NCBI RefSeq assembly: GCF_001186125.1
Contig: NW_014040442.1
Span: forward strand, 96,110-148,406
DNA from: Sphaeroforma arctica JP610
Taxonomy: Eukaryota
Length of the DNA: 52,297 nucleotides
Direction of reading: 5' to 3'
Part shown: positions 1-34,609 of the stretch, one piece after another
Numbering within the stretch: position 1 is the stretch's first letter
How the letters are laid out: each line of letters begins with the position of its first letter
Position numbers and translations under genes: made by a program
The notes under the pieces: model-generated
Seen by the model: only the letters and a program-made list of their open reading frames with translations
What the model was told of the DNA's origin: nothing
The model's database searches: none

Positions 1-2083
1 CGAATCCTCACCGACAAAGTCATAGAGGAAGCCACGAGAATCACAATAAGTGTACCATGGTATCCAAATGCGACGTGGTTCCTACCATCGATTTATTTGC
101 AGCAGCACACAATGCACATACAGAAAAGTTCTACACCAAAGAACAGAATGCAATACTCCAAAAATGGGCAGATGAATTAAGCGCATGGGCGAATCCTCAC
201 TGACAAAGTCATAGAGGAAGCCACGAGAATCACAATAAGTGTACCATGGTATCCAAATGCGACGTGGTTCCCCAAATTCTTGTCACTATTTGAGCAAGAC
301 CCGATGATAGTCGAAAACACGAACAACACATTCCTAAAAACGGCACAACAGCCTGCGGCAAAACACCATGAGGGGTCACACTAGTAGCCAAAATAGGCAC
401 AAAGTTACCATACTTTGATCAAAAACTAGAAAACTCAGCCGCAAAAAGTGCGTCCGTACAAACTGCGGACGAGTCGACAGAACTAGACACAGTCACATAT
501 GATAACAGAGCTACCTTGATAGCTCAATACCTTACCGTGGGTCACTACCCCGTTAAAGAAACAGTGAACAAACTTTAAATTAGATGGTCACACATGGTCA
601 TGCCAGAAAAACGTGCCAATCAATACATTGAAGGCTGTGTACCATGTCTCAATCAAATAAATCACAAGAAGGTGTTCCAACCCTTACAATCAATGCACAA
701 AGTTACCATACTTTGATCAAAAACTAGAAAACCCAGCCGTAAAAAATGCGTCCGTACAAACTGCGGACGAGTCGACAGAACTAGACACAGTCACATATGA
801 TAACAGAGCTACCTTGATAGCCCAATACCTTACCGTGGGTCACTACCCCGTTGAAGAAACAGTGAACAAACTTTAAATTAGATGGTCACACATGGTCATG
901 CCAGAAAAACATGTCAATCAATATATTGAAGGCTGTGTACCATGTCTCAAAAAAAAATCACAAGAAGGTGTTCCAACCCTTACAATCAATAACGGCCGCA
1001 TTCCCGGGCGACAAGATACAAGTGGACACCATTGGTCCCTTGATAGACTCGAATAGAGGCAACACATGCGTCCTGGTTTGGCTCGATATACACTCATCAT
1101 GCTATACTTAGACCAATGATGGACAAGTCGGCGGCAACTGTCACATGAACACTAGTTCCAATCATGTGTGAACATGGCTTTCCACAAGTCATACAAATGG
1201 ATCAAGGCACAGAATACGTGAATGACATACTCTCGGAAATCATCGAGCCAGCACCGTCACAACACCTAGTGTACAGACCGTACCAATCCATAGTAATGGG
1301 AGCAAATTAGCGTTTACATTGAGACCTCATACCCTTACTGCGGAAATTTGTTGAATAAAATCCAGGCAACTGGTGTTCACGCCTTCCATTTGTTCAAATG
1401 AGCCACAACCTACGTTCATCACACAGACACAAATAAATGCGTTTCAATGTGTACTATGGACGGACGACGACACAACAAACTATCCGATTATAACAACAAT
1501 CAATGCACCCGGTACAACAGTACCATGGGAAACACGACTGAAGAATCTAGAAGAGTCGATACGATCACACCTAGAAAATGTTGCACAATATCAAGAAAAT
1601 ATGCGCGCAGCATATGACCGTAAATACCGAGAGAAGTATGTACACTTCAAGGATGGGGACATTGTGATGGTTCGTTACCAAGGTGAAATGAATAAAATGA
1701 CAGCACCATACGGATGACCTTACAAGATGATGAGCAAGGAGGGCAACGAGTATTTTGTATGTAACCTTGATGGGACTTTAGCCCCCGAATATCTTAACTC
1801 GGTCAGTGATGAGCTAATCGGACTAGTCAAGAAAGCCAATGCTGTGGAAGAATTCACCACGAACAGTCAAGTACAACCATCGGAAGAAACTCAATTCTCC
1901 TCGACACTTGACCACAGACCATCCACAAAAGATGATGAATCCCAGGAACACCTACTGCAATGGCCGGATGGGAAGCGTACCTGCACGCATGAATCAGACA
2001 TCACAGATGCTGATATTCTTACACTATATACCGACAGCGTACCAGACGCAAGCGAAGGCAATCGAGGCCGACGAAGTCAATAG
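1..2083 (+). pseudogene. pol: Ty3/gypsy pol 3' part (element A): decayed Dam-like methyltransferase, integrase and chromodomain-like tail
   Basis: 87-198 translates IDLFAAAHNAHTEKFYTKEQNAILQKWADELSAWANP, then (frame-shifted) ITISVPWYPNATWFPKFLSLFEQDP...CGKTP. Integrase motifs follow: FQPLQSITAAFPGDKIQVDTIGPL, HGFPQVIQMDQGTEY, HFKDGDIVMV. Chromo-like EHLLQWPDGKRT near 1950. Many stops and frameshifts, two tandem duplications. Confidence 0.85.
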
Positions 2084-2440
2084 CAACGAGCACTAATGAA
2101 CGATCAGCGAGCAACAGGAAGCGCACGAGGCGGGGAAATTAACCAAGTTTTACTGACACCGAAGGGCACTCCCACTTTTCTCACCTTGAAGCATGCTCCG
2201 CCTACAAGCCAGAGAGATAAGGACCAAAGACTCGGTTATAGAGCCACCGTTGAGATGTGTTTTCATAAGCCAAGTTGAGACCAACCGAGAGCACATGTCA
2301 AGACTGGCTCCGACGAGCATGATTGAGAACTCGCGTCATATCATAATTTAAGATTAGGCAATATGTAAGAATAGATAATGGTGGCAGGTTTTTCATCTTA
2401 AACCAGGGAAAAGTTTTCCCTGTACAAAAACACCAACCTC

Positions 2441-3116: not shown

Positions 3117-3327
3117 TGTGGTTAAATACGCGAGGTTAACAATATCTCAACGTACTCCCCTCATACAAGTGGAGACGTTGTATCTTTATTGAATCATAAA
3201 ATGAACCATAGGTTCTACTATTTGACATGTGTATAAATTTGCTCATAGACCCTAAACCAGGGTGTATGACCTTTCTCAAATAAACCTCAAACCCCTAAAT
3301 AAACCTAACTGAGTATATCTGACCATA
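3117..3327 (-). repeat. 3' LTR of element B
   Basis: TGTGG...GACCATA; direct repeat of 19546-19753 (about 15 substitutions and one indel by eye); followed by the C-rich complement of the PPT (accctccc). Confidence 0.95.
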
Positions 3328-3580
3328 ACCCTCCCAAGCTGAAGCACGGTCGTGTGCCAGTTTCGTATGGTTGAAGATCTACTCACTATACATAGGACGT
3401 TGGTTAACCTCCACGAACAAGAGGGATCCGCTGGCATTTACCCCCAGAGAGCTGGAGTATCGGCTGGCATTTAACCTCAGAGAGCTAGAGGGCCCGGTTA
3501 CTGACAACCACGCGAGCATGGTCGGTAACGTATAAGAAAGAAATAACTATAACAATAAGAACTAAACATAGCCATACTTG

Positions 3581-5124
3581 TTACACCGCGTCTCGCCGGC
3601 GCTTGCGAGAGCGTGTTTGTGTATCCTTGTGGTATGCCACAATATCATTAGCATCGTCAAACACCTCGGCCGTCTCCCAGATAGGACCCCCTTCTCGCCA
3701 TCGTATGAGATACTCCATCTTGTTCGTGTCATCATTTACACAATGTTTAATGATGTGGCGGAACGCGGACCCGTCCTCACACCAAAGACTCTCGTCCAGG
3801 GGTGGGTCAGTACTCCTGTGGACCAAACGTATCAGTTCAACCCGGACTGGTCGACCTTTGAATTCCGATGGAGTCGAACCATCACGATGAGATATATCGT
3901 ACCCCTGTCCATTCCGGCCTTTTACGACATAAGAACCAAACAAGGAGCACATGGCCTTTGATGTTCGGCCTTCCGATTTGACCATCACCACATCGCCCTC
4001 CTCGAAGTGCACTAAATCGTCCGTATGAAGGCGGTCGAAATTCTTCGTCAACGTATCCGTGTGCCGCATCATCAACCTATGTAACGGTGGTAAGATCGTA
4101 TCCTGGAGGCGATCGAGGCGCTGAGCCCACGTCTCATTCGTGACTGGCTGATTCTCTGGGGTATCGTCGGTAAAGTCCGAAAAGGGGACGTGGCGGCGTC
4201 CAAAGTATACGCTAAAGGGAGCACTTTTGTGCCGACGGGATACGCGCAGGTTTTGGTACAGCATCGTGAATGGTAGGCGCTCATCCCACGCTTGGGGTAT
4301 AGCCACAGAACAGATCCGAATCGATCGGACAATTTCCTTATGCCGGCGTTCCGTGGCCCCTAATACTTGCGAGCGGTATGCCGGCGAGAGTTTGTGCATC
4401 ATCCCAACCTTCCGAACAATGAGGGCCACTACCCCGTTGATAAATTCGGTACCCATATCAGATTGTATCTTCCGGGGGAACCCGTGCTCTCCGAAAATTG
4501 CCAATAACGTCTGCGCCGTGGATTCCTTTGATTTGTCAGGTGTGGTGCGGAGGATCGAGTACCCGGAGGCGATGTCAAGAACATGTAGAACGTACTTGTG
4601 CTTTCGACTAGATACGATCGGCATCGGGATATAATCAACTTGAATGTGGTCCCACGGATAACGAGCGTCTTTACTCACCAATGGGTGAAACCCTTTCTTC
4701 AGGGTGTCCTGACCCAAGCACGCGCTGCATTGATGCTTAACTTCCGTGGCCAACTCCAGAGCTCCCGGCCATATGTGGCCATTATGTTGAAGGTGTGTCA
4801 CTGTATCTGCTGCACCGTGGTGTCCTTGTTCATGTTGGGCTTGTGTAAGTTGTGTGCGTCGTTGTTGTTCTTCTAGTGACGCATTGACAAACGCTGGCTG
4901 AGCCTCCGCACTGGTTATTGGGATTGAGATTTCCCGTGCCGTGTCCAAACAACGAGGTTGTGGTGGAAACCGGGGCTCGGCAAAACCCAACCGGTGTTGA
5001 AACGACTCGTGTAGCTGAAAGCCATTGGAGGGCCCCACCCTATCAATGACCGTATGTCCCCACGGGGTTTTACCACACGCATACTTGGCGTGTTTCAAGA
5101 ACGTGTGTGGTGTTCGGGGCACCA
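3581..5124 (-). CDS. pol: Element B integrase plus C-terminal chromodomain (uninterrupted ~514-codon frame; start lost to insertion of C)
   Basis: HHCC finger (HEQGHHG...CSAC), DDE core (QVDY, QSDMGTEF, ATERRH), FEEGDVVMV/GSY module, chromodomain FRHIIKH...EYLIRWREGGPIWETAEVFDD. Confidence 0.93.
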
Positions 5125-5355
5125 TGTAGTGAGTAGTCGAGAGTAACTGTATTTCAACGTACTCCTCTCGTACAAGGGGAGACGTTGTTCATTTATTGAA
5201 CTAAATCCGGTGACTATCATTTTGGTCATGTGTTTTCCGTTAATCAGTTTTAACCTGATTGGATAAACCCAATTCAAAAGGTAGTCTCTAAAAAAACCCA
5301 AATATCAAATAAACCCTAATCCTAAATAAACCCTATCGGGGACTTCCTGACTACA
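5125..5355 (-). repeat. 3' LTR of element C
   Basis: Direct repeat of 13522-13731; followed by a poly-C run (PPT complement) at 5356-5363. Confidence 0.95.
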
Positions 5356-5425
5356 ACCCCCCCAAGCTGAAACGCCACAAGTGTGCGAGCTTAAAAGATT
5401 GAAGGAATGCCCTGAAAGCGGTTGC

Positions 5426-5613
5426 GTGCTGGCATTTATCTTCAGAGAGCTAGGGCATTGTGCTGGCATTTATCCTCAGAGAGCTAGAGCATTGTGCTGG
5501 CATTTATCCTCAGAGAGCTAGAGGGCTGGCATTTATCCTCAGCGTTGTGCTGGCATTTATCCTCAGAGAGTTAGAGCATTGTGCTGGCATTTAACCTCAG
5601 AGAGCTAGAGGGC
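5426..5613. repeat. Tandem ~34-bp repeat (GTGCTGGCATTTATCCTCAGAGAGCTAGAGCATT, about 6 units) in the 3' UTR of element C
   Basis: Units read directly near 5426, 5460, 5494, 5525 (partial), 5547 and 5581. Two related units occur in B (~3430-3492) and one in D (~26309-26341). Confidence 0.9.
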
Positions 5614-5700
5614 TCGGCTATTTGTTCACCACTCGAGCTGGTGACTAAACTGTAAGTACACGTAACATAAAATTATATCTATTAACAAAGTATCTTCTAA

Positions 5701-7040
5701 CTATAACTGGTCTCTCCGGCGTTTCCGAGCTCGTGTCTGCGTATCTTTGTGATATGCCACAATGTCAGTAGCATCGTCAAAGGCCTCGGCCGTTTCCCAC
5801 GTCGGCACCCCCTCGTGCCAACGCACCAGAAACTCGAGTTTACCCGTGACATCATTCGTTCTATGTTTGATGATGTGACGGAACGCTGACCCGCCTTCTT
5901 GCCAAAGATCATCGTTCAACGGTGGGTCCGTACTGCGGTGGACCAACCCTAGTAACACAACCCGTACCGGCTTCCCATTAAACTCCTGGGGAGTGGACCC
6001 ATCTCTATGAGTAAGGTCATAACCTTGACCGTTGCGGCCTTTAACTACACACGGGCCAACAGTGGACGCATGGCAGTGGAAGTTCGCCCCTCCGATTTCA
6101 CCATCAAGACGTCGCCTTCATCAAAGTGGACTAAGTCCTGGGCGTGTAACCGATCAAACGTCTTCGTCAATTTATCCGTGTAGGTCGTAGTGATCTTATG
6201 CAGTGTAGGCAAAATTGTATCCTGGAGCTGGTCCAACCGTTGTGCCCACGTGTCATTAGTAACGGTTGTTGCTCTGGTACGTCATCGGTGAAATCCGCAA
6301 ACGGCACGTGTCGACGTCCGAAATAAACGTACAGCATTGTAAAAGGGAGACGTTCGTCCCATGCTTGAGGTACTGCCTCACAGACGATGCGTATCGAACG
6401 TGTTTTCTCCTTGTGCCGACGTTCCGTTGCCCCAACACCTGTGGTCAATAAGGTGGTGATACTTTGTGAAGTATACCCGCTGTCTTGACAATGAGGGCGA
6501 CCATGTTGTTCGTAAACTCATTACCCCTATATGTCTGTAGCTTGCGAGGAAAGCCATTTTCGCCAAAGATAGACAACAACATCTGCGCGGTGGTTTCCTT
6601 AGTCTTATCTGGTGTGGCACGTAAGATCAAATAGCCGGAAGCCACGTCTAATACACGGAGGACAAATTTATTATGTCTTGTGAACGTTACCGGCATTGGA
6701 ATATAGTCCACCTGAATGTGATCCCAAGGGTACTTCGCATCAATGCTTGTCATCGGATGGAAGCCTTTACGTAGGGTATCCTGGCCCAAACACTGTCCAC
6801 ACTGCCGTTTAATTTCTGTAGCCAGTTCTAATGCCCCCGGCCAAACGTGGCCGTTCTGTTGTAATTGTTGGACAGTATCGGCAGCGCCGTGGTGGCCTTG
6901 CTCATGCTGTGTCTGTGTGAGTTGTGTACGCTGTTGTTGTTCCATCGGTGTGGCATTCGCAAAGGCCGGTTGTGCCCCCTCACGTCTCTCGTGCCGTATC
7001 CAAACACTGATGGTTTGGTGTGTGTCGAGGTTCGGCATAG
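5701..7040 (-). pseudogene. pol: Element C integrase and chromodomain (frameshifted)
   Basis: ORFs 6445-7038, 6167-6448, 6045-6236 and 5701-5958 are colinear homologs of the B integrase, including EFLVRWHEGVPTWETAEAFDD. Confidence 0.9.
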
Positions 7041-7049
7041 CCTAATCTT

Positions 7050-7490
7050 TGTGTAAAGCTCTCGGCGAGCTGGAAACCTGACGGCAGCCCCACTCGTGCA
7101 ACGACCGTGTGTCCCCACGGCGTCTTCCCACGGGCATACTTCGCATACTTTATAAATGTATGCGAGGTCCGGGTTCTCGGTTTGCAAAAATGATTTGAAA
7201 AGGTCAAACCATGGTGCGCGAGGTGTCCAAGGTAAGCACACCGTCGCTGTAGCCCCATCCGCTTTGATCTTCCGAAGCATGCGATGTATCGACCTCCACG
7301 GCGGATTCATCCATCCGTCAACCAACGCCCAGTTATGATCAAATGCACCGTCGCGCTCGTTTTTTGTCCAAAACCTAGGAAGCTGTGTGTTATGGGGTGC
7401 TGCGAACACGTCTATGTTGTTGTGTCCAAAGATACGCTGTGCTTGTTCGAAGTAGCTGGGAAATAATTGCCAGCAGTCTGCATATAGTAT
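7050..7490 (-). pseudogene. Dam-like (NPPW) DNA amino-methyltransferase domain in element C Pol
   Basis: In frame after RNase H: DCWQLFPSYF...IDVFAAPHNTQLPRFWT...GAFDHNW...GWMNPPW (7296-7307)...ATATVCLPWTPRAPWF. Matches the motif layout of DIRS-type/phage Dam-like MTases. Confidence 0.85.
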
Positions 7491-9426
7491 ATCTGGCACG
7501 TCTGTTTCCGCGGTCCCTTCATGTATACGACTCAGCATATCCGGCAGGACATTCCTCTCCCCAGGTATATGTGAAATGGTGAAGTTAAAAGGCGCTATAA
7601 TGTGGTGCCACCTCTGTAGCATAGGATTAAGTTTCAGTTGAGTATTTATATATACTAATGCTTTGTGATCCGTAAACACCGCAAAGCGCTGGCCGTCAAG
7701 GTAGTCGCGGAAGTGTGTCAACCCGTAGACTAACGCTAGTAGTTCCTTCATTGGTGTCGCATAGTTCTGTTGAGCCAGATTGAGTGTCTTGCTGAAAAAC
7801 ATTAGGTAGTGTTTCTTGCCCTCCACCCACTGGAACAGTGCCCCCCCCCTCAATCCGTAGTCGCTCACGTCTGTCTCGAGGTTGAGGGGGACGTCATCCA
7901 CCGGGAAGTGTAGTGCGACCGCGTTGACTATCGCGTCCGTCATCGCTGTCCACGTGTCCGCATGGCGTTGTTCCCACCTATCTCCGATCAGTTCATTCGG
8001 CTTCAGCTTGCAAAACTCCCGTAGAGGGGCTACCACGTGTGCGAAATTGGGTAGGTGTTCGTGCGAGAAGTTAGCTAATCCCAACGCGGAGGCAATGTCC
8101 TTATATCGCTGAGGTGTTGGCCAGTCGAGGAGTTTAGCCTACTTGTCAAATTCAACGTCAATCCCTGCCGCTGAAGCCTTGTTACCTAGTATCATAACCT
8201 CTGCAAGTGCAAAGTAGCACTTCACTGGGTTCAGTTTGAAACTGTGGTACGTCAATCTTCTGATCACCTCTTTCACTATAGCGATGTGCTCTTCATAATT
8301 GTCACTGGCAATCACAATATCGTCAATGTAGTGGTGGACTGGTAGTCCATCTAGAATCGTACTGAGCGTCCGTTGGAATTGTTGCGTCAATACGTGCAAC
8401 CCGAAAGGTGCCGATGTAAACGAGTACTGGTATCGATCGTGTGTGAAATTAAATAGGTATCTAGAATCCGAGTGTATCGGTAGTCTATGATATGCTGCTG
8501 ATATATCAAGTGTGGTATAGTACTTCCTGCTCTTCAGTTGTGAAATGATCTCATTCACCTTCGGTATCAAGAACTGGTCTCCTGGAATCAGTGCGTTGAC
8601 CTCTCGTATGTCCAGACATACCCGTACCTTCTTCACATTACCCTCACTATCAAACGTTGTAACTGTGAGTAAGGGATGATTAACCGTCGTGGGAGTGGTC
8701 CGCTTCGTAGTCTCTAAGTCCTTCAATCACTTCTGTACTTGTTCATCGACATACGGTAACCATCGCTCGAATACAAAGTTGCGTGTCGATCGTCTCATGC
8801 TCCTAGCCTGCTCGCGTGTCACCGGTATTGTCACTTCACTCCCCTCTAAGCAGCAACGTGCCTTGTCTGCAATGTCGGCGTTCGCTTCCAACCCTGCGGC
8901 CAGCCTTGTCCGTACTCCGTCGGGTTCGATGGTATTGGGGGCTTGGCGCCGAGCCATGGGTGTAAGGAGTTCATCTAGTTCCGTTGGGTCGATAGGTGCG
9001 AGTGGTGACTGAATTCCGCCAATATATAACCCAAGGTTCGTCATCATGTCCAGTCCCGAGTATAATGTCGATGCTGTCAGGGAGATTCATCAACTCGAAC
9101 GATCCATTGATGATCTCTGAGCCATAACCTATCGGTAACACTCCTGTTGTCCCCAGGCGAGGAGTGCGTACCGCTTTATCCGCCAAATATATAAATGATT
9201 CGCTGGGTGCTGGAGTAATTGGTCGTCCTAAGAGGTCTGCGGATGCTCGTACGATGCAACTACGGTTCGCACCTGTATCTATCAACGCTCGGAATGTACG
9301 ACCATTCACCTGCAATCGTATATAGACACGGTTGTCGGAGGACAGCAGTGGGTCTTTTATTGTCATCACTGTCTTCAATGGATGCGTGAACGTAAATGCT
9401 ACCTCATCATCGGATACCCTGAGGTC
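7491..9426 (-). pseudogene. pol: Element C protease, reverse transcriptase and RNase H
   Basis: PR ALIDTGANRS; RT KVRVCLDIREVN, LDISAAYH, PFGL, YIDD; RH ETDVSDYG, FFSKTL, KELLALV, FTDHKAL, NVLPDMLSR. A few stops and frameshifts. Confidence 0.93.
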
Positions 9427-11518
9427 TCAATGTTGCTCTGTTATCGGGGTCCATTGGGGCTGCAAAGTGTCCGTTTGTGTATCTACGGTCTGATCGAAGT
9501 CATTGGTTAGGATGAAGTGTATATGTAACTCTGTGGCCGACTGGCTATCGTATCCCGGACCCTCCTCCTGTGTGAGCACATTAACCTGCGGTGTCGTCGC
9601 AGTTGAGGTCGACTGTCGGTTTAGGTATTGTGGTGGTAGGTGCACGGACCCTTCTGGTGGCGTAGATCGCTGTCCCATAGTCACTTCTCTCTGCTGCTGA
9701 CTAGTGTCTGACGTCCGTGTCATCACGTCCTGCCCCTTATGTTGGGCAGCTCGGTAATGATGGCAGCGCGGTATATGTCGCAACCCTGGAGGTGCTTGTG
9801 CGCGGCAACCGTTGCACGTCGTTGGGTTAGTTGTTGGAGTCGGGCGTTGTTGCCATTGTTGCTGCTGACGCTGGACTATGTGCGGGCCAGGTCTACTAAA
9901 CGATTGACTAACCGTTGAGTCGAACGAATCTGGGCCTCCTGGATATCCGGACTGAGCAGCTGTAGTAATTCATGAGTCTCCATGAGTTGCCACTTTGGAT
10001 GTAACTGTAACGTGCGCTCATATGTCCGGGATCCTAAGGTGTCCTCCAACAATTGAACTATGCAGTGGTTGAGCAATTTTTTCTTAAAATCTGCATCGGT
10101 CTGACAACGCTCGTGTGCCCGACGATGGTTCTCCATTAAGTATGTCATCTGTTCCATCACTGGAACATTACTAAGTTTCTGGTGTCCCGTTGCTAATTTG
10201 CGAAATGTGGGGTCCACCGTAGCCTGAGTCTCGTGTGAACAGATTTGTGTTATTTGGAGGTCTGGTGTCCATGTAACTAAACGTTGGTGATTAGATTTTA
10301 TATAATCAAGTGTAGATTGTTCGGCTTTAAAGTGACTTAACACCTTATAAAACCAACGAAGACTCCATGCTTCGTCGAGACCCGAAATCTGCGCATTCTT
10401 AAGGGCTTCTCGCAATGCCCCTTTAGTGTCGCGCTCCATAATGTTGCTGAGGTTATACCAGTTCGAGGGCCACTCCGGCCAACTACGTGGTTCCCGTGGT
10501 TCCTGTTTGTTCACCGGTCGTGAGTCATGGGTTGCTCTTAATGTCTCGAGTACACCTCTTAGTGCTTCCGCTCGTGGCAAGTTGTTGGCTTCCACTGCAC
10601 TACATAATTCTTCCGACAATTTGAGCATACGCGCGTGCTAGGCTTGGCGGTCCGCCGCTATGCTGTCTGGTGTAGGAGGTGTGGCCTGCTGAGCCAAGCG
10701 TCGACGCTTCTCCGATGACGTAGCTTGACTCGACGGTGTGCGTTCAAGCAGCCTGCGTGACGGTAGACTGTCATTCATAGCTTCTCGTACAAATTGTTGG
10801 TTCTGACGTTGTGCTTGTAAGGACGTGTCCATGTCGTCACGTCGATTATCCAGTGCCTCCCTCCCGTGAGGGTTCTGTGTAGCTCTACGTCGTTCCTTTG
10901 TAAAGTATTGACGAGATATCGTTTCCTGTTGTGTATCGCCTTCGTCCTGATCCGACGGTGTGTACCCTAACCCCTGACGGGCATCGTCGGTTCTTCTAAT
11001 GCGGAACTCGATGTTTTAGGGTTTTGTTCCCTCGTTGCAGTCGACGCAAACGCCGTTCATATTTCTCTAATAGCGATTGTTGTCGTCGAAGTAGGCTCGT
11101 CATTTGCTCTGGTGTATCATCGTCTCTACCTCGGCTCTGTCGTTTCTCTTTGGTATGAGAACTATGGCGCTTACTTGTAACAGCGCGTGATGCCTCTCGA
11201 GGAGTTGTCCCCTCCTGGTAGTGAGCCTGCGACGTCGAATGTGGTGCTCTCATGATTTCGGGGGTGTCGTTCACGATCCGTGAAGTCCACGTCACTCGGA
11301 GTGGTTATTCGCCCGTCGCGTTGATGTTGTGCTGTTAGTGTCCGCTGGAGTATTGTTCGGTTAGTTCGACGTTCTGACTTTAAGTCCTCCGACACTTCTC
11401 CATCCGTATCTACTCGATCCTGAGTACGTCGTCGGAAACCTCGTTGATGGATGTCATCCCGTTCACGTTGTTCTGGGGATAGCTGTTGCTGCCGACGAGT
11501 CTGTCGAATGTTAGTCAT
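9427..11518 (-). pseudogene. gag: Element C gag (fragmented)
   Basis: ORFs 11171-11518, 10996-11295, 10638-10832, 9876-10628 and 9427-9783 align with the gag regions of B and D (RAEALRG, WPSN, NHCIVQLL, CxxC...APPGLRH) and lie directly upstream of PR. Confidence 0.8.
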
Positions 11519-11869
11519 GGTTGAAGTAGCTTCTGTTTGTCTATTGATAGCAATGTCCCGTTATCTTTGCCTCTCTTCCGCCTTAAATAGTCCACTGCTT
11601 AGTCATGTCATCGCCTTTCGAATAACCTGAAGCCCCATTGACGGTACATACATCGTCTACGTCTTGCTCTATTTCGTAGTCTCGACACATCGGCGTTGTC
11701 CCTGCATAGGCAATCGTGTTTTAGGCTAATTCCGGGTCTCGTTGTGGTTGCTCTTTTACTCTTCCAACTAACCCCTGCTCTTGGCTCATGTGCCACTGTT
11801 TTCTCGGTAACTCCTTGCTCCCAACATTCGGTTTCCATCTCATCTAAGTACATGTTCTTTACTCCTTTC

Positions 11870-12294
11870 TGAGAGACTACAGATCTCAAGCAAGTTTCAA
11901 TAGCAAGAAAACTCTTTTTCTTGAATGAAATCACAAGAGTTGCGTCACTCCGAAAAGCGGATCAAATTATTAACCACATCATGTTAATAATACATTTGCT
12001 CCTATGAGAGCATTGCTCTGAAAGCCGATACCTAGGAGAGAATTGCTCTGAAAGCCAAGCAACATTAATTGATCGGCGTAAGAGCGAGTAGCAGAGATTA
12101 TGCTATAGAACAATATCTAAGTGTTAAAGTGTTCTGCAAAAGGTTTCTCATACTGACCATATGAGTTTTCACCCTGGCCAACCCAAGCGGTTGAACACTA
12201 GCACAAACACCTTGAGTATAAAACCAAAGGTGAGGTTGTAAATAAAGATATACAATTACGCTTTATTCAAAGACTACCATCTTACACTCTAACA
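11870..12294. repeat. Solo LTR of a different family inserted in element C's leader
   Basis: TGAGAGACT...CTCTAACA flanked by the 5-bp TSD CTTTC (11865-11869 and 12295-12299); homologous in inverted orientation to 23273-23693. Confidence 0.8.
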
Positions 12295-12857
12295 CTTTCA
12301 AAGCTCATCTACTCCCCCAACGATTGTCGCCTCTAACCTCTCGTAGCTACTCAGTTTGTCCGCCAATATCACCCGTCGTTCTCGTCTGTGATCCCGGGCT
12401 TACGCAAGCACTTGTCTCTTCCAACTCGCTTGGACGGCGCACACCCACATTGAACGCACACCCACATTGCCATTGCTTCGTGGTCACTTACACATTGATG
12501 TCACTTGCTTGCATGTTCATCACTTCTGGTACTAGCTTATTTCACATTATTGTACTCTATATTGGTGTATACGCTTACTGTGTGTGCAACTTACTTCCTG
12601 TCTGTTTTAACATTTGGTGCGATGCACATCTCTCCGTGTTACCGTCTTTGCATGAATATCTGTTACCGTGAATTATTATCCATGTCATATGATCACTATT
12701 TCTTATTTCAGCAGGTTACTTGAGTGCTATACAAGGCGTATCTTACATATATATATGTCTCTATTTAACGTTTTCTTACGTACCTGATTGACGTGTACGT
12801 CCACATTCCTTGTTGTCTTGGTGATCTTCCAACTTTTACACCTACCTTTGTTATCCC

Positions 12858-13373
12858 TCATCTGTGTTCCACTTCGTCTTCTATAATCTGCCATCCTTCT
12901 TCCTTGTCCTCTTCAACCTTCCTGGTGTGGCTCGGCTCTGGCGAAGGTGTTGGTGCCCATAACGGTGTGGATGTTTCTTGATGTGGTGTGGTTCGGAGTG
13001 TCCATGTCGATGTAAAGGTACACACTCTTTGGTTTTGTTCTAACATATCACTTCCTCCGGTTCGTTTGGCTACCGCAACATCTTCGGTGTCGATACATAG
13101 TAGTCTGTTAATAACTCCGTCGCTAATCTCTATCCGCTCTATTCTCGCATTCAAGCGGTCTACTTGTTGACGAGTATGCGTCCGGAGTCTACGATTGTGT
13201 CGTCCCATGCGTCTGGCTTGTCTCTGGATTTCTGAGGTTATTCTATTCGTCTCCGCCTCAGACGCACTACTGCTGTTTGGTAGAAGTGCTGGCATGCTAT
13301 CACTAGTATCACTACTAATAAAGCCACTATCTGTGTCATCTACTAACGGTTGTTCTATGTTGACGACCGTCAT
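12858..13373 (-). CDS. Extra upstream ORF (ORF0) of element C, unknown function
   Basis: 171-aa ORF between the 5' LTR and gag; N-terminal DDTDSGFISSDTSDSMPALL matches the corresponding regions of B and D. Confidence 0.6.
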   Translation of the reverse strand: MTVVNIEQPLVDDTDSGFISSDTSDSMPALLPNSSSASEAETNRITSEIQRQARRMGRHNRRLRTHTRQQVDRLNARIERIEISDGVINRLLCIDTEDVAVAKRTGGSDMLEQNQRVCTFTSTWTLRTTPHQETSTPLWAPTPSPEPSHTRKVEEDKEEGWQIIEDEVEHR

Positions 13374-13521
13374 TTCCGTTTATGATATCTGAGACATCTC
13401 TCTCTTCTTTGTGTTGTGTACAAAAAATTATACTTTTACACGGGATCCTATAGTCCCTCCTAACTTCGTCCCCTATTCAGGAATAGTTCAATTAATGTAC
13501 AACATCTAAGTCAGTTAAAAA

Positions 13522-13731
13522 TGTAGTAAGTAGTCGAGGATAACTGTATCTCAACGTACTCCTCTCGTACAAGGGGAGACGTTGTTCATTTATTGAACTA
13601 AATCCTGTGACTATCATTTAGGTCATGTGTTTTCCGTTAATCAGTTTTAACGTGATTAAATCCAGTTCAAAATGTAGTCTCTAATAAAACCCTAATCCTA
13701 AATAAACCATATCAGGGAATTCCATACTACA
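13522..13731 (-). repeat. 5' LTR of element C
   Basis: Direct repeat of 5125-5355 with two deletions. Confidence 0.95.
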
Positions 13732-13735
13732 ACCA

Positions 13736-14070
13736 ACACCGGTTCCGTCTGTAGTAAATACTTGAACAATGTGAAGCACGGGGCTCTAGAGGCCCACGGT
13801 TCGCATACTGTCACCGACGCACCATCAGACTTATTCTTCCGAAACATCTTGTGTATAAGTTTCCAGGGTACATTCATCCATCCGTTGACCATCGCCCAAT
13901 TATGTCGAAAGGCGCCTCCCCGCTCGTCATACGTCCAGAACCGAGGCAGTTGCGCATCCCCTGGTGTCGCGAACACATCCACGTTGTTGGGACCGAATAT
14001 CTGCTGAGCTTGTGTGAAGTATTTCGGGAACAGTTGCCAACAATCAGCGTATAGTACTTCTGGTATATCA
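13736..14070 (-). pseudogene. Dam-like methyltransferase domain of element B (NVPW variant; C-terminus split by element C)
   Basis: LYADCWQLFPKYF...VDVFATPGDAQLPRFWT...GAFRHNW...GWMNVPW (13863-13874)...VTVCEPWASRAPCF. Confidence 0.8.
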
Positions 14071-14189
14071 CCTTCCACAGTCCTTTCGTGGACCCTACTC
14101 AACATGTCAGGGAGAACATTCTTCTCCCCTGGAATATGTGATATCGTAAAATCAAACGGGGCTATTATGTGGTGCCACCGCTGGAGCAT

Positions 14190-16133
14190 TGCTGAGCTTG
14201 TGTGAAGTATTTCGGGAACAGTTGCCAACAATCAGCGTATAGTACTTCTGGTATATCACCTTCCACAGTCCTTTCGTGGACCCTACTCAACATGTCAGGG
14301 AGAACATTCTTCTCCCCTGGAATATGTGATATCGTAAAATCAAACGGGGCTATTATGTGGTGTCACCGCTGGAGCATCGGGTTCAACTTCATTGTGTGTC
14401 CATATACACTAACGCCTTGTGGTATGTGAACGCCGCGAAACGCTGTCCGTCGAGGAATTCCCAAAAGTGGGTAAGCCCATATACCAGCGCCAATAGTTCC
14501 TTCATTGGCGTCGCATAGTTCTGTTGTGCCTGATTGAGCGTTTTACTGAAGAACATGAGGTAGTGCTTCTTCTCGTCAACCCACTGGAACAAAGCTCCCC
14601 CGATGCCATAGTCGCTGGCATATGTCTCCAGATTCAGGGGGACATCCTCTACTGGGAAGTGTAAAGCCACCGCATTAACAATCGCGGTCTTCATAGCCGT
14701 CCAAGCCTCCGAGTGGCGGGGTTCCCACCGTGTCCCAGTCAGCTCGTTTGGTCTCAGCTTGCAGAACTCCCGGAGTGGCGCCACTATCAGCGCGAAATTG
14801 GGAAGATGTTCGTGTAGGATGTTCGCGAGACCTAACGCCGATGCTATATCTTTGTAGCGCTGCGGTGTCGACCAATCCAGCAGCTTCGCCTGTTTCTCGA
14901 AATCAATATGAATACCTGCTGCTGATACCTTCTTCCCAAGAATCATGACTTCCTCAAAGTGACATTTATCCGGATTCAACTTGAAGCTGTGATACGTAAG
15001 ACGGCGTATCGCCTCCTTAGCCGTTGCTGTGTGCTCTTCGTAGTCGTCTCCTGCTATCACTATATCGTCAATATAATGGTGCACAGGGAGGCCATCCAAG
15101 ATTGTACTCAATGTCCGTTGGAATTGCTAGGTGAGTACGTGCAGTCCAAATGGCGCTGACGAAAACGAGTACTGGTGGCGTCCATGGGTGAAACTAAACA
15201 AGTATTTCGAATCCGGGTGGATGTATAATACTTCTTTCTCTGTAGACGCTATATAATCTCGTTCAATTTGGGAATCAAGAATTGGTCGCCTGGGATCAAG
15301 GCATTGACTGCCCGCATATCAAGGCATACTCGCACCTTCTTTACATTTCCCTCACTATCAAAGGTTGGTACCGCTAGTAGTGACAGGTTCACCGTAGTTG
15401 GAGTAGTCCGCTTGATAATTACTAAATCTCGTGGCCACTTTTGCACCTATTCTTCCACATATGGTATCCACCGGTCTGACACAAAGTTCCTCGTTGATCG
15501 TCGCAAGTTCATCGCCTGTTCTCGGGTAACCGGTATGGCTACCTCACTCCCTTCCAACCGGCAGCGTGTGTTATCAGTAATCGCTGCATTCGCCTCCAGG
15601 ACTGCTTTCAGTTTCATACGTATGCCGTCAGGTTCAATTAAGTCCGGGGCTTGTCGTCGACAAATCGGCTTCAGTAAATTATCTAATTCTGTCGGATCTA
15701 TAGGTGCCAAAGGAGATTGTAGTCCCCCTAAGTAAAATCCCAAGCACGGCATGATATCCACCCCGATGATCACATCGATCCCTACCGGTAGATTCAGTAG
15801 TTCTAAAGAACCTTTCGTTATGGACGTTCCATATCTAATTGGGATACTCTCCGTCGTCCCCAGTCGCCGAGTGTGCGCCGCCTGATCCGCCAAATAAATG
15901 TATGAATCAGGAGGAGCCGGAGAAATCGGTAGGCCTAGTGCCTCTGCGGATGCCTGCAAAATACAGCTTCTGTTTGCGCCTTAATCTACCAGGGCTCGGA
16001 ACATGCGACCGTTCAACTGAATTTGAACATACACTCGTTGATCTGCTGTCAACAACGGGTCTTTGATCGCCTGTACCGAGTATCCCGCGTACGCAAACGT
16101 CAATGCTATATTGTCGTCAGACACCCTGATGTC
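14190..16133 (-). pseudogene. pol: Element B protease, reverse transcriptase and RNase H
   Basis: KVRVCLDMRAVN, YIDD, ETYASDYGIGG, KELLALV; PR region with IIGVD and a decayed catalytic motif. Stops, deletions and a 188-bp duplication. Confidence 0.92.
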
Positions 16134-18283
16134 TCATGGTTGATCTGATATAGGTGGCCATTCTAGGGATATCTTATCAGCTTCTGTTCCTGTAGTCGGA
16201 TCACTCTCCCCCATATCACCAGAAAGCAGTGCTCCAATATGTAGATCTGTAGCGGTCGGTGGGGTATCCCACGCCGACGTATCTGTAAGGTTGTGTACAT
16301 ACGGTTGCGTGTTGTTGTCGCCTCCCGCACTCCGTACCCGTGGTACCGATAGTGTTACCGTCGTTGAGGGTGTTACTGAATTATGTGATATCGAGGCACG
16401 TTGTCGTATCTCTGACGTGCGGCCACGGTTGTCCTGTGTCGCTGCCCTATAATTATGACAACAAGGAACGTGTCGTAAACCTGGTGGCGCCTGTGTCTGG
16501 CACCCGCCACATGTCATCGTTGTCGTCGACATCGGTGTACATTGTTGCCACGGTTGTGGCCGTCGTGGTGTGACGGTTGTGATGTGCGTGGTAGCTGTGC
16601 ATCCCCCCGTTGATGATCGTTGTTATGGGGTCGCCGGATCGACATCCGCGCCGTAGTTCTCGTCTGTGCTTCCTGAATATCTGGACTGAGAAGCTGCAAC
16701 AATTTGTGGGTCTCCATCAATTGCCAATTAGTGTGCAATTGTAATGTCCGTTCATATGTTCGGGATCCAAGGGAGTCTTTCAATAACTGTACGATGCAGT
16801 GGTTTAAAGGGCTTTGATTGAACTCCACATCTGTCTAGCTGCGCTCATGGGCACGTCTGTGATTTTCCATGAGCTGTGTCATCTATTCCATAATGGGTAT
16901 GTTTGACGCCCGAAAGTGTCCTTTCGGGTCGACTGTCGCTTGAGTTTCGTGAGAACAAATCTGTGTTATCTGCAACTCTGGTGTCCAGTTGACTAACGCT
17001 GGTGGTTGGACTTAATGTAGTCCATGGTAGATTGTTCGGACTTAAAATGGCTAAGAACCTTATAAAATCACCGCAAGCTCCACGCCGCGTCTGGGCCCGA
17101 GATCTGCGCATTCTTCAGCGGGTATCTCTCTCCAAGACATTATGTAGTTGGTATCGATTCTCGGCTCTCGTGGCTCGTGCTTAGTTACTGGGCGAGAGTT
17201 ATGTGCAGCTCGCAAGGTTTCTAGTACCCCTCGTAGCGCTTCGGCCCGTGGAAGATCCTCTGCCTCGACCGCTCTACACAATTCCTCAGATAGTCAAAGC
17301 ATCCGCGCATGAAGTACTTGACGGTCTGCAGCAATACTTTCTGGTGTAGGAAGGGTCTCCTTATCACTGGCCGCTGGTGGAATCGCCGGTGTTGTGTGGG
17401 TTGCTGACGTCGTGTGTCGTGGTAGCGAATCTCGTAGTGCATCCGCCTCGAAACGTTGACTCTGTTGTTGAGAATAGATCGTACCGGATAGTCTGTCACG
17501 TCGATTGTCCGATGTTTCAGGGCCATGAGGATCCTGTGCTGCTCGTTGTTGCGCATGGGCAAAATCTTGTAACGAAATAGATACTCTTGATGGAGCTGCG
17601 TTCATTGGACCCACCTCTGGAGATGGAGCCTGGTACCCTACGCCGTGTCTGGCCGCACTACCTGGAATCCTAGACTCCAAACGCTCATTTCCTCCGTGTG
17701 GTGCTGCCAACGCACGAGATGTATCATCACTCTCCTCTTGGTCCTGATCTTGAGAAATCATTGTATGATCTACTCGCGGTCCCGCTGCCTGTCTTTGTAG
17801 GTGTTGCAGCCGTTGTTCGTATTTCTCCTACAGTTCCTGCTTTTTCTTCAACAGCTGATCCGTCTTAGATTGTGCGTTGCTCGCATTCTGTCGGTGCTGA
17901 CGGTAAGGCCGACGCTTCCGACGAGGCCGTGTCTGTCCTTGCTGGTGTTGAACCCTGCTGCCGTCATTCTGGCGCTCTTGTCCCCTGACTTCCTCTCTCC
18001 GTGTGCTAGTGCTCGACGGGGATGACTCGAAACCGTCGCTAGGCGGTGCTGCACTCTCGCCTTGACGTAAGCAGGTCTGATGGTCCGCTAGGGCTTGCTG
18101 CAACATTGTCTGAGTCGCTCGGAATATTTCGTCTGCATTACCTCGCTGATTCCCAGACGATCCATTGCCTACTTCTTGTGATGGTCCAACTCTGCGCTTA
18201 AGGCCTCGTTGGTGGCTCGCACTACGTACTTGTTGTTCGGGTTCCAGACCGTGTTCACGGCGGCTCTTCCGTGTGCTTGGCAT
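16134..18283 (-). pseudogene. gag: Element B gag (fragmented)
   Basis: ORFs 17828-18283, 17294-17761, 17060-17281, 16514-16828 and 16134-16532 are homologous to the gag fragments of C and D. Confidence 0.8.
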
Positions 18284-18921
18284 CGCGTTAATTGCTTGGT
18301 TGTATGTACTTGTACGTCTAGAAACAATTGATCGCTAACCATCCCTGCCTGCTGCTTATATATGCAAGGGATGGTTCTCATCCCAACCCATATGGGCTTC
18401 CTGGCCTCACGTACTTTACTCCCAGAGTATATGGTCCCACTGCCTCCCGTGCAGAGTAAATGTTCGGGGTAACTCTCTTTCATCACTCTCTACTCTGGCC
18501 TCATGCTCCTCTAACGGTTGCACGTGTGTCTTCTGGTTGCACATGCTCACTCTTACTTGCCACCATCTGGCCCAGCAAGTACTGGCTGAACGTCTATTCA
18601 CCCTGTATTCCGTTCACGCAGTATAACTCGTATCCAGTACTTCCTCGCTGCTAGCTATCCAGCTGCTTATGCCCTCGGTTGTAATACATGTCGATACCTG
18701 TGACGTTCACCTCATGTCCTTGCTTCCGCCTGATGCTTATCACAACTAATCACTAACTTAGGTTCCCTCTGTGCAAACCAATACTCGGTGTATGATGTCT
18801 AGGTGCGTGCCTCTTGCTTCGCATTACAACCTCTATCACGTGACACTACTTCATACATTCCTGCTACTAATGCCTGCACCTTTAAAGCAACACCCATCCG
18901 CATTTAAGAACTATCTATATC

Positions 18922-19440
18922 TTAATATACCCGCTCACTTTTCCTTCTTGACCATAGAGACTTACCTTGTCCGGTGAATATTGTCCATGTCCGTTGTTCA
19001 TCGTTTATTCCTTCGCCATGTTCATGTCCGCCATTCGTCAGTATTCCTGGTGCCCTTGCTGCTCGTTTTAATGGTGCTGGTGGCCCGACTTGGCGCCAAC
19101 TCAACCCATTCACCTTCACATATCGCTCTTCTCTTCTTATAGTATCGTATATATCCCATCTTGCCAATCGCTGCCTTCTTATATTGATTGATTGGTTGAT
19201 TTCATGGCGTGATTCTCGTAGGGGGATCACTTCTTCATTTGTGTGATCCTCATCTTCTTCGCCTTCCTCAGAGTCACTCTCTGAGTTTGACAAAAAAAGA
19301 TGGCAAGCTCTGGTCACTACTGCAAAACCCGCTGTCCTCACTGCTCAGTTGTTGGTCTGCTGCTAACAGTCCAGTGGGGGCATTAACACCTCTCAAGTGA
19401 CTCCTTGGTAGGCTCTTCCATTGCCTCGATGTTGATGCCC
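18922..19440 (-). pseudogene. ORF0 of element B (frameshifted)
   Basis: Manual translation gives ...LSSEDSGFCSSDQSLPSF, then a T-run frameshift into SNSESDSEEGEEDE (ORF 18922-19341). Confidence 0.55.
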
Positions 19441-19545
19441 TAATTCTAGCGAAAAAAAAATATAGGTCATTTTTCCGTCTTCCTCATACTATGTCGATTC
19501 TAACTTTACTTCCAATAAAGTACAACTATATAAGCTTGTTAAAAA

Positions 19546-19753
19546 TGTAGTCAAATACGCGAGGTTAATAATATCTCAACGTACTCCCCTCATACAATGG
19601 GAGACGTTGTATCTTTATTGAATCATAAAATGAACCATAGGTCCTATTTGACATGTGTATAAATTTGATCATAAACCCTAAACCAGGGTTTATGACTTTT
19701 CTCAAATAAACATTAAAATCCTAAATAGACCTAACTGAGTATATCTGACCACA
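19546..19753 (-). repeat. 5' LTR of element B
   Basis: TGTAG...GACCACA; direct repeat of 3117-3327. Confidence 0.95.
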
Positions 19754-21153: not shown

Positions 21154-21266
21154 CTAGACTCCTACAATAGTGTCTCTCCTCTGTCTCATACCCTTCGCAT
21201 TCAGCTACCCCACGCGCTACACATCTGCGGGTACCACAATCACGGGTATACACACAGTCATCCAAC

Positions 21267-25997: not shown

Positions 25998-26230
25998 TGT
26001 GGTAAACGAACGCTTCAATAAATGTATCGCAACGTTCTCCCTACGTAGAGAGGGAGACGTTGTTCATTTATTAGTAATTGTAAAATTAGTGACTCTAAAA
26101 GTGAGTCATAAGTCATGTGCTGTAATAGTCAGCAAAAACCAAGTTTATCAGATTATTCTGATAAACTGTAAAAAAAACTATAATTGCTAAAATAAACAAC
26201 TAAAACCTAAGTACTTGTATTCTGGCCACA
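25998..26230 (-). repeat. 3' LTR of element D
   Basis: Direct repeat of 34379-34609. Confidence 0.95.
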
Positions 26231-26399
26231 ACCCCCCCAAACTGAAGCACTGACCGAAAAGCAGTGTGCCAGTTTTAGAGATAGTGAGGAATACCCAAGT
26301 AACTTAGTTGCTGGCATTTATCCTCTGAGAGCTAGAGGGCTCGACGATTACGGTTCGAGCGCACCGTCCTACCGAGTAGGCATATCTGAAGATATAATT

Positions 26400-28050: not shown

Positions 28051-28059
28051 ACGTTGTGT

Positions 28060-28540
28060 GTTTTGGTTCTGCATACCCAAGTCGCTGTGAAAACAGCGGG
28101 TCCAGTTTGAACCCGTTAGGGGGTCCCACTCGTGCAATCACTGTGTGTCCCCATGGCGTCTTGCCACAGGCAAACTTAGCGTACTTGAGGAACGTGTGCC
28201 GCGTTCGTGGGACCAGCACTGGTTCTGATTGCAACAACTGTTTGAACAGGTCAAACCATGGTGCTCTTGGTACCCATGGCAGACACACCGTGGCCCTCGC
28301 ACCATCGGTCCTTATCTTGCGTAACATTCTCTGTATCTTCTCCCATGGTGGGTTCATCTATTCATCGACTGTCGACCAGTCGTGGGCAAACGCCCCTTCC
28401 CCATCGTCTTTAGTCCAAAATCGAGGAAGCTGAGCGTTAGACGAGTCCGCAAATACATCTGTATTGTTCGGACCGAAGTGTTGTTGCGCTTGTTCAAAGT
28501 AACTAGGGAATAACTGCCAACAGTCTGTGTACAGTATTTC
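28060..28540 (-). pseudogene. Dam-like (NPPW) methyltransferase domain of element D
   Basis: LYTDCWQLFPSYF...TDVFADSSNAQLPRFWT...GAFAHDW...E*MNPPW (28343-28354)...ARATVCLPWVPRAPWFDLF...CGKTPW. Confidence 0.85.
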
Positions 28541-34038: not shown

Positions 34039-34230
34039 TCAGATGTCTGGTCCTGATTCGATTGCTTCTTGGGTTCGGTCGTGGGCTCCTTGGGTTCGGT
34101 CGTAGTCCTCTTCGCTGCCACTACTCGATATCAATGATGGCATTGTGGCACTAACGTCACTACTTGTGTACCCACTATCGTCTTCTACCGCGGGTAGATT
34201 CTCAAAGATTTCATCATTTTGTCGCGCCAT
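34039..34230 (-). CDS. ORF0 of element D (N-terminal part; may have been longer)
   Basis: MARQNDEIFENLPAVEDDSGYTSSDVSATMPSLISSS, homologous to ORF0 of C and B. Confidence 0.55.
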   Translation of the reverse strand: MARQNDEIFENLPAVEDDSGYTSSDVSATMPSLISSSGSEEDYDRTQGAHDRTQEAIESGPDI

Positions 34231-34378
34231 CTTACTTCCGCTATTATAACAATCGATGTTCTCTTTCTTCGTTCGTCGTATTCCTGTAGAAAAATCTAAA
34301 AAAATTTCATTCAATTATTATAAAGTAGCTTATTTCCTAATTACTAATATACTCACAACTTCCTTGGTAAGCTAAGAA

Positions 34379-34609
34379 TGTGGTAAACGAACGCTTCAAT
34401 AACCGTATCGCAACGTTCTCCCTCCGTAGAGAGGGAGACGTTGTTCATTTATTAGTAATTGTAAAATTAGTGACCCTAAAAGTGAGTCATAAGTCATGTG
34501 CCGCAGTAGTCAGCAAAAACCAAGTTTCTCAGAGTATTATGATAAACAGTAAAAAATTATAAAAACTAAAATAAACAACTAAAACCTAAGTACTTGTATT
34601 CTGACCACA
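34379..34609 (-). repeat. 5' LTR of element D
   Basis: Direct repeat of 25998-26230. Confidence 0.95.

What the first reader, a model, noticed from the sequence alone, without database searches (positions are those of the whole stretch)
7050..7490. Chromodomain Ty3/gypsy retrotransposons with a Dam-like DNA methyltransferase between RNase H and integrase
Seen: elements C (7050-7490), B (13736-14070) and D (28060-28540) each have a ~150-aa domain in frame between the RH end (NVLPDMLSR) and the integrase HHCC finger. It has a D[VL]FA SAM-binding-like motif, a GAFxxxW motif, NPPW and a hydrophobic strand ending in P-W...W-F. Known: this layout matches Dam-like N6-adenine (or N4-cytosine) MTases, found after RH in DIRS tyrosine-recombinase retrotransposons, and is not a standard Ty3/gypsy domain. 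These are true LTR elements with direct repeats, TSDs, a DDE integrase and a chromodomain. Inference: the lineage may methylate its own cDNA or insertion site, pairing a DNA-modification writer with a chromatin reader in one polyprotein. Retention in three families with diverged LTRs suggests selection. I cannot tell whether this has been published.
Basis: partly seen in the sequence, partly recalled or inferred. Interest (0 to 1): 0.92.

Follow-up and report, generated by a model that had tools for sequence, protein, structure and literature searches.

The report
Gypsy retrotransposons carrying adenine methyltransferase domain
Three broken jumping-gene copies of the gypsy type carry an adenine-methyltransferase-like domain, predicted to mark the element's own new DNA copy, plus a worn chromodomain; this kind of element was described in a 2026 preprint.

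Summary
Three decayed Ty3/gypsy LTR elements on the minus strand carry a Dam/PCIF1-like N6-adenine methyltransferase domain between RNase H and integrase. Each has paired LTRs, a 4-bp target duplication and a polypurine tract. The domain passes Pfam Dam in copy C, folds as a Rossmann methyltransferase (best match PCIF1/CAPAM) and is under purifying selection. One correction: B and A are one element, split inside this domain by the insertion of C. A fourth, related family lies at 1-2130.

The architecture is in print. A May 2026 preprint defines DAM-LTRs, including an ichthyosporean lineage, and the window's RT and methyltransferase both group with Abeoforma elements. This scan has noted the kind before in other genomes.

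Two points go beyond the preprint's text. It says this lineage lacks chromodomains, yet these elements and an Abeoforma relative end in a divergent one that falls under its E-value cut-off and, in the window, lacks two of three methyl-lysine cage residues. The closest solved structure is an RNA cap methyltransferase, so the substrate may not be DNA. Activity is untested here, and the preprint's E. coli assay was negative.

The parts
5125..13731 (-). Element C, a decayed Ty3/gypsy DAM-LTR inserted inside the methyltransferase domain of element BA; target duplication ACCA/ACCA
13522..13731 (-). 5' LTR of C (TG...CA)
   Evidence: 195 of 210 aligned columns match the 3' LTR
5125..5355 (-). 3' LTR of C, preceded by a G-rich polypurine tract
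8974..9426 (-). Aspartic protease of C
   Evidence: Pfam gag-asp_proteas E 7e-7
8142..8726 (-). Reverse transcriptase of C
   Evidence: Pfam RVT_1 E 6e-21
7527..8138 (-). Connection and RNase H of C, in frame with the methyltransferase
   Evidence: Pfam RT_RNaseH E 3.8e-26
7085..7493 (-). Dam/PCIF1-like N6-adenine methyltransferase domain of C (DVFA, NPPW); frameshift near 7170
   Evidence: Pfam Dam 31.4 bits
6057..6906 (-). Integrase of C (zinc finger, DDE core, GPY/F region), frameshifted
   Evidence: Pfam rve E 3.8e-10
5728..5910 (-). Divergent chromodomain of C
   Evidence: E 1.3e-5
13732..19753 (-). 5' half (B) of element BA: 5' LTR 19546-19753, gag, protease, RT, RNase H and the first part of the methyltransferase
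13732..14060 (-). First part of the BA methyltransferase (DVFA, NVPW), cut by the insertion of C
   Evidence: Pfam Dam 20.5 bits, under the cut-off
3117..5124 (-). 3' half (A) of element BA: methyltransferase tail 5124-5030, integrase and chromodomain (3790-3608) in one open frame, then 3' LTR 3117-3327; target duplication TGTA/TGTA
25998..34609 (-). Element D, a decayed DAM-LTR (LTRs 34379-34609 and 25998-26230; TTAT/TCAT) inserted into the RT gene of a copia element
28121..28540 (-). Full-length methyltransferase domain of D (DVFA, NPPW), with one stop codon just before the NPPW motif
   Evidence: model pLDDT 92.3
26427..26593 (-). Divergent chromodomain of D, frameshifted
   Evidence: E 6.3e-8
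1..2130 (+).
   Evidence: tblastn of P0006, 40-83% identity by segment; chromo profile match prob 95.9; no Pfam hit for the chromo-like end

Best explanation
These are dead copies of Ty3/gypsy LTR retrotransposons whose Pol reads protease-RT-RNase H-methyltransferase-integrase-chromodomain, and the methyltransferase, likely taken from a DIRS element, is predicted to put N6-methyladenine on the element's own newly made DNA copy. Shown here: the domain order, the LTR anatomy, the fold, the conserved motifs, purifying selection, and grouping with Abeoforma DAM-LTRs. Inferred: in live copies the domain travels with RT and RNase H in the particle and methylates the nascent cDNA or RNA:DNA hybrid using SAM. 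After integration the host maintenance enzyme AMT1 would keep the mark, so the new copy stays transcribable. This is the model of the 2026 preprint. The cage-less chromodomain would steer integrase to chromatin by some contact other than a classical methyl-lysine cage. Confidence in the identity is about 0.95; the number given is for the mechanism.
For: Pfam Dam above cut-off in C. Model pLDDT 92.3 matches N6-adenine methyltransferases: CAPAM Z 10.0 (135 aligned, rmsd 3.2), M.TaqI Z 7.7, T4 Dam Z 7.4. The catalytic Asn is kept in 3 of 3 window copies and 16 of 18 LTR-type relatives. Between families, synonymous sites are saturated and pN/pS is 0.21-0.27 for the domain. Among family-C copies, shared variants are 11 silent and 4 replacement, against 1 and 7 for changes private to the window's copy. 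Intact relatives carry the whole order in one frame (P0006, P0036, P0011). The RT groups with Abeoforma elements at SH-aLRT 98 and the methyltransferase at 92. The preprint reports more 6mA and more transcription on DAM-LTRs than on other LTRs in S. arctica and A. whisleri.
Against: No activity was measured here. The preprint's expression of such domains in dam-minus E. coli gave no rise in 6mA, and its 6mA enrichment is a correlation that host AMT1 alone could produce. The best structural match is an RNA enzyme. Iyer et al. judged DIRS methyltransferases likely inactive. Copy B reads NVPW. The domain's pN/pS (0.21-0.27) is higher than RT and RNase H (0.11-0.14) and not far below the linker (0.34). 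The dominant family-C contig in runs X18 and X19, guessed to be RNA, lacks 25 bases that include the NPP codons. ApT is not enriched or depleted in the elements (0.96-1.10 of expected). AMT1 was not looked for, as no genome is held.
Confidence: 0.45

Rival explanations
1. The domain methylates RNA, as its closest structural relative PCIF1/CAPAM does. It would put N6-methyladenine on the element's own transcript (cap-adjacent or internal) or on the primer, aiding stability, translation or packaging.
For: CAPAM is the top match in two fold searches (Foldseek E 7.8e-4; Z 10.0 against 7.4 for T4 Dam), and ranks 2-11 are RNA methyltransferases (one of them putative). The profile aligns to CAPAM over the D-x-F-A motif, though only at E 1.8. 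Iyer et al. place DIRS methyltransferases in the PCIF1 clade. The assay on E. coli DNA was negative.
Against: CAPAM needs a large helical domain to help bind the cap and long substrates, and this 140-residue domain has none. A shared fold shows no function, and small domains score similarly on many Rossmann folds. The Pfam family it hits is annotated as a DNA methylase. The preprint links DAM-LTRs to hosts that have DNA 6mA.
Confidence: 0.2
2. The domain is catalytically idle. It is kept as a SAM-binding or nucleic-acid-binding module, or as a structural part of the RT-RNase H unit, and the 6mA seen on such elements is laid by host AMT1 because they are transcribed.
For: Iyer et al. call DIRS copies likely inactive. 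The heterologous assay was negative. B has NVPW, and the Asn is replaced or unaligned in 6 of 40 DIRS-type and 24 of 93 unclassified relatives. Purifying selection fits a structural role as well.
Against: NPPW is kept in 15 of 18 LTR-type relatives, and D, F, A, P and P of the two motifs are at least 90% invariant across 70 sequences. Both sets were found with an NPPW-bearing query, which favours this result.
Confidence: 0.2
3. The domain methylates the cDNA only as passing protection against host nucleases or sensors before integration, as phage Dam enzymes do, with no lasting epigenetic effect.
For: It matches the phage-type Dam family. The similar idea of cDNA protection is discussed for cytosine methyltransferases in retrotransposons.
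Against: The preprint finds 6mA enriched on integrated DAM-LTR copies, and DAM-LTRs mostly in AMT1-positive hosts (9 of 13). No methyl-sensitive host nuclease was looked for.
Confidence: 0.15

Closest known systems
Ichthyosporean DAM-LTR lineage (Fernandez-Moreno et al., bioRxiv 10.64898/2026.05.21.726589; whole main text read, figures and supplements not seen)
   Same: Ty3/gypsy Pol with a DIRS-derived Dam domain. The best hit is Sphaeroforma arctica SARC_07150 at 66% identity, and RT and methyltransferase group with Abeoforma whisleri proteins.
   Different: The preprint says this lineage lacks chromodomains, but the window's elements and Abeoforma P0036 end in a divergent one. The window's elements may be among those the preprint counted; this was not established.
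Chlorophyta DAM-chromovirus-like clade and EpiLTRs (same preprint)
   Same: Dam domain and chromodomain in one LTR element.
   Different: No cytosine methyltransferase was seen here. In my trees the Pfam-chromo-positive DAM elements (P0010, P0052, P0124; hosts unnamed) fall outside the window's clade.
DIRS tyrosine-recombinase retrotransposon methyltransferase (Iyer et al. 2016, PMC4738411, passages read; de Mendoza et al. 2018, PMC5890265, passages read)
   Same: Same domain, at the same place right after RNase H, with the same motifs.
   Different: Here a DDE integrase, direct LTRs, target duplications and a gypsy-type RT and RNase H.
PCIF1/CAPAM cap-specific m6Am methyltransferase (PMC8287941, passages read)
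   Same: Closest solved fold; NPP-aromatic catalytic motif.
   Different: 13-16% identity; no WW or helical domain; part of a retroelement polyprotein.
Group II retrotransposon chromodomains (PMC3350952, passages read)
   Same: Chromo fold at the integrase C-terminus, keeping the central Trp and lacking the first and third cage aromatics.
   Different: That paper knows group II only from plant gypsy elements. Kinship to them was not tested, and Abeoforma P0036 keeps an aromatic at the first position.

Membership tests
Ty3/gypsy LTR retrotransposon | Pol order protease-RT-RNase H-integrase | tested here: met
   Pfam hits in this order in C
Ty3/gypsy LTR retrotransposon | Direct LTRs ending TG...CA, target duplication, polypurine tract | tested here: met
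   3 of 3 elements; 4-bp duplications, one with a mismatch; the BA 3' LTR ends TA
Ty3/gypsy LTR retrotransposon | tRNA primer-binding site after the 5' LTR | tested here: inconclusive
   No TGG start in 3 of 3; self-priming match is only 7 bases, in C's 5' LTR; host tRNAs not available
DAM-LTR (2026 preprint) | Pfam Dam domain in Pol of an integrase-type element | tested here: met
   31.4 bits in C; Dam plus integrase in 13 of 64 relatives scanned
DAM-LTR, ichthyosporean lineage | RT and Dam group with Abeoforma/Sphaeroforma/Pirum elements | tested here: met
   SH-aLRT 98 for RT and 92 for the methyltransferase; quick trees, Abeoforma the only named members, no Repbase references
DAM-LTR, ichthyosporean lineage | No chromodomain (as the preprint describes the lineage) | tested here: not met
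   Chromodomain found by profile, fold and blind search. The named Abeoforma member has one too, so this corrects the description more than it excludes the window
DAM-LTR, ichthyosporean lineage | 6mA enrichment on insertions in an AMT1-positive host | not testable with these tools
   No genome and no modified-base data
N6-adenine methyltransferase (Dam/PCIF1 type) | Rossmann SAM-binding fold | tested here: met
N6-adenine methyltransferase (Dam/PCIF1 type) | NPP-aromatic catalytic motif | tested here: met
   NPPW in C and D; NVPW in B
N6-adenine methyltransferase (Dam/PCIF1 type) | Methyl transfer to adenine in DNA | not testable with these tools
   The preprint's E. coli assay of related domains was negative
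DIRS retrotransposon | Tyrosine recombinase and DIRS-type RT in place of integrase | tested here: not met
   DDE integrase; the RT lies outside the 24-row DIRS-type branch
Classical (group I) methyl-lysine chromodomain | Three-residue aromatic cage | tested here: not met
   Only the central Trp is kept in A, C and D (cage definition)
Chromovirus clade | RT falls within reference chromoviruses | not tested
   No reference set was on hand; the chromovirus-like P0010 does not group with the window

The most novel reading that the evidence does not exclude
The retrotransposon 'Dam' domain is a PCIF1/CAPAM-like RNA methyltransferase that modifies the element's own transcript or RNA:DNA hybrid, which would explain the negative assay on E. 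coli DNA. In the ichthyosporean lineage it is paired with an overlooked, cage-less chromodomain.
Probability: 0.2. Interest if true: 0.75.

Novelty: new member of a known kind. Interest (0 to 1): 0.33.

Why it matters
A transposon that writes an 'active chromatin' mark on its own copies would reverse the usual picture of methylation as a silencer of transposons. That idea is already in a preprint and still lacks an enzyme assay. This window adds two testable details. The lineage closest to animals carries a chromodomain after all, so writer and targeting domain occur together more widely than stated. The fold also points to RNA or hybrid substrates, which the preprint's assay on E. coli genomic DNA did not test.

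Tried and rejected
No whole genome is held, so genome copy number, AMT1 and insertion sites were not examined. Three word-index homologue searches found nothing; the HMMER search did. A profile of the methyltransferase found no solved methyltransferase by sequence at E under 1. dS is saturated, so dN/dS could be computed in only 4 of 15 comparisons and pN/pS is given instead.

No run on record as RNA holds the element. Runs X8, X18 and X19 are only guessed to be RNA, so expression is neither shown nor excluded. Summed contig depth over C is far above that over B, but the tool says this is no copy number. The Atlas gave only generic clusters for the domain and no host lineage for the citrate synthase.

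Self-priming of the Tf1 kind (recalled, not from a call) was not supported: the best match is 7 bases. The open frames upstream of gag have no convincing Pfam match. Four separate elements A-D was rejected, because A and B are one. No tRNA genes lie in the window.

Paper searches: 2 papers; 2; 0; 1; 3; two searches were for background.

Full report
Observation. Six-frame translation shows the motifs on the minus strand at the stated places. The open frame 8138-6831 of element C holds a gypsy-type RNase H (E 3.8e-26) followed by Pfam Dam PF05869 (31.4 bits, cut-off 28.1). B scores 20.5 bits, under the cut-off, and the C-terminal half of D alone gave no hit. C and D read NPPW; B reads NVPW. No copy is intact.

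Anatomy. Self-comparison gives three LTR pairs. BA has LTRs at 19546-19753 and 3117-3327 with TGTA on both sides. C has 13522-13731 and 5125-5355 with ACCA on both sides. D has 34379-34609 and 25998-26230 with TTAT/TCAT. Each has a G-rich polypurine tract, and none has a TGG primer site. LTR pairs are 92-93% identical over aligned columns, and LTRs of different elements 72-74%. C sits inside the methyltransferase of BA: B stops where A resumes when compared with D. A carries the domain's tail, the integrase (Pfam rve E 4e-11) and the C-terminal domain in one open frame. D sits in the RT gene of a copia element. A fourth family, E, lies at 1-2130 on the plus strand and matches the intact protein P0006.

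Fold. Copy D, read with X at its stop and aligned with 69 other sequences, gave a model with mean pLDDT 92.3. Foldseek's best match is human CAPAM/PCIF1 (E 7.8e-4), the only one of 497 matches under 1e-3. The wide search agrees: CAPAM Z 10.0 (135 residues, rmsd 3.2), then RNA methyltransferases at about 8, M.TaqI 7.7 and T4 Dam 7.4. By sequence the profile reaches CAPAM only at E 1.8. Iyer et al. 2016 (PMC4738411, passages) put DIRS methyltransferases in the PCIF1 clade and thought them likely inactive. CAPAM is a cap-specific RNA enzyme with an NPPF motif, and its helical domain helps bind the cap (PMC8287941, passages); the retroelement domain lacks that part.

Selection. Between families synonymous sites are mostly saturated. 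pN/pS is 0.12-0.14 for RT, 0.11-0.12 for RNase H, 0.21-0.27 for the methyltransferase (0.11 for the 30-codon tail alone), 0.34 for the linker, 0.18-0.19 for integrase and 0.27 for the chromodomain. Contigs of other family-C copies were laid on 7040-7530. I classed 23 of the 29 listed variants and left out six: four seen only in runs X18/X19, one at low share in X1 and absent from X14, and one at the frameshift. Shared variants are 11 silent and 4 replacement; those private to the window's copy are 1 and 7. This fits a family under purifying selection and a copy decaying since insertion. It rests on summed contig depths and is crude. Against an active enzyme, the dominant contig in X18 and X19 lacks 25 bases that include the NPP codons.

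Relatives. HMMER found 1115 proteins at E up to 0.001 and listed 150. The best is Sphaeroforma arctica SARC_07150 at 66%. Three others are from Abeoforma whisleri (P0012, P0015, P0036) and one more from S. arctica. Most have no name. I scanned 64 proteins on Pfam (62 of the 150 plus two cluster members, chosen mostly for length). Thirteen hold Dam plus an integrase family, and three of these pass Pfam Chromo. The catalytic Asn is present in 16 of 18 that I labelled LTR-type, 34 of 40 DIRS-type and 69 of 93 others; the labels are my reading of domain content. In a 39-row RT tree (B's frameshifted RT and several partial RTs left out), C and D lie in a 10-row branch with the Abeoforma proteins (SH-aLRT 98), apart from 24 DIRS-type rows. 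In a 59-row methyltransferase tree (unclassified rows, P0001 and P0003 left out), the three window copies lie in a 14-row branch with the same relatives (92), among DIRS-type rows. Both are quick, unrooted trees without reference elements, so they show grouping, not the donor. The host is probably a Sphaeroforma-like ichthyosporean; this is inferred from these hits and was not confirmed.

What is known. Fernandez-Moreno et al. (bioRxiv 10.64898/2026.05.21.726589; whole main text read; figures and supplements not seen) define DAM-LTRs in five lineages. These include chromodomain-bearing ones in green algae and an ichthyosporean lineage in Pirum, Abeoforma and Sphaeroforma, said to lack chromodomains. 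They report more 6mA and expression on DAM-LTRs, and no activity in dam-minus E. coli. Earlier notes of this scan reach the same paper for other genomes; I had found it before reading them.

The chromodomain. The C-terminus of A alone matched 19 solved sequences at E up to 10, all of them chromodomain proteins, best E 1.5e-4. A profile of 12 C-terminal stretches, picked by eye from the window and nine relatives, matches cpSRP43 at 1.4e-12 and an HP1-type chromodomain at 2.3e-11. Singly, 9 of the 12 match Pfam Chromo, best E 2.1e-5, which is weaker than the 1e-5 cut-off the preprint used. The model (pLDDT 80) matches CBX7 with TM 0.74, though at E 3.8e-3. As a check free of my selection, a profile from three Pfam-positive chromodomains was run on 1223 sequences. 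After the seeds, the top three are the C-termini of D, C and A (6e-8, 1e-5, 3e-3), and Abeoforma P0036 scores 7e-3; the best off-target window segment scored 0.1. The window's versions keep the central Trp but lack the first and third cage aromatics, like group II retrotransposon chromodomains (PMC3350952, passages). The two paper searches that bear on this showed no report of it; the preprint's figures could still show it.

Mechanism. I commit to methylation of the element's own cDNA or hybrid, maintained by host AMT1 (0.45). Rivals are RNA methylation of the PCIF1 kind (0.2), an idle binding module (0.2) and passing protection of cDNA (0.15). A search for DIRS, methyltransferase, PCIF1 and retrotransposon together returned only Iyer et al., so the preprint's text does not raise the PCIF1 link. 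Verdict: a correct reading of a real domain, but a member of a kind described in May 2026, with one small correction to that description. Interest 0.33.

Noticed in passing
window 1-2130 (+) and 2462-2740 (-): A fourth DAM-LTR family fragment close to intact protein P0006, and beyond the N gap (2441-2460) a protease fragment of the same family in the opposite orientation.
   Followed up: partly
window 19516-19545, 13492-13521, 34349-34378: No TGG tRNA primer site follows any of the three 5' LTRs; BA and C start TTTTTAAC and D starts TTCTTAGC. The primer is unexplained.
   Followed up: partly
window 3429-3502, 5427-5622, 26309-26349: A shared unit of about 34-41 bases, tandemly repeated in the 3' untranslated region of BA and C and present once in D, upstream of the polypurine tract; possibly a cis signal.
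   Followed up: no
window 12861-13379, 18925-19344, about 34050-34315: Open frames between the 5' LTR and gag on the sense strand; C and D share a 45-residue Ser/Asp-rich stretch at 31% identity, with no convincing Pfam match. They may be an extra gene.
   Followed up: partly
window 14002-14377, 26916-27527, 397-990, 24436-24818, 35819-36318: Several head-to-tail duplications of 190-310 bases at 92-99% identity inside the elements; slippage or assembly artefacts.
   Followed up: no
window about 20987-36495: A decayed copia element on the plus strand (terminal repeats 95.5% identical), split by element D.
   Followed up: partly
window 12106-12246 and 23330-23470: A 141-base segment shared in inverted orientation between element C's leader and the copia element, 86% identical.
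   Followed up: no
window 45865-47595 (-): Citrate synthase gene (Pfam E 1.6e-62) beside an AT/AC microsatellite field at about 40800-45000.
   Followed up: partly
proteins P0044, P0130, P0021: Other layouts among the hits: Dam before RT with an endonuclease domain (P0044), Dam before RT (P0130), and Dam in front of a copia-type RT (P0021).
   Followed up: no
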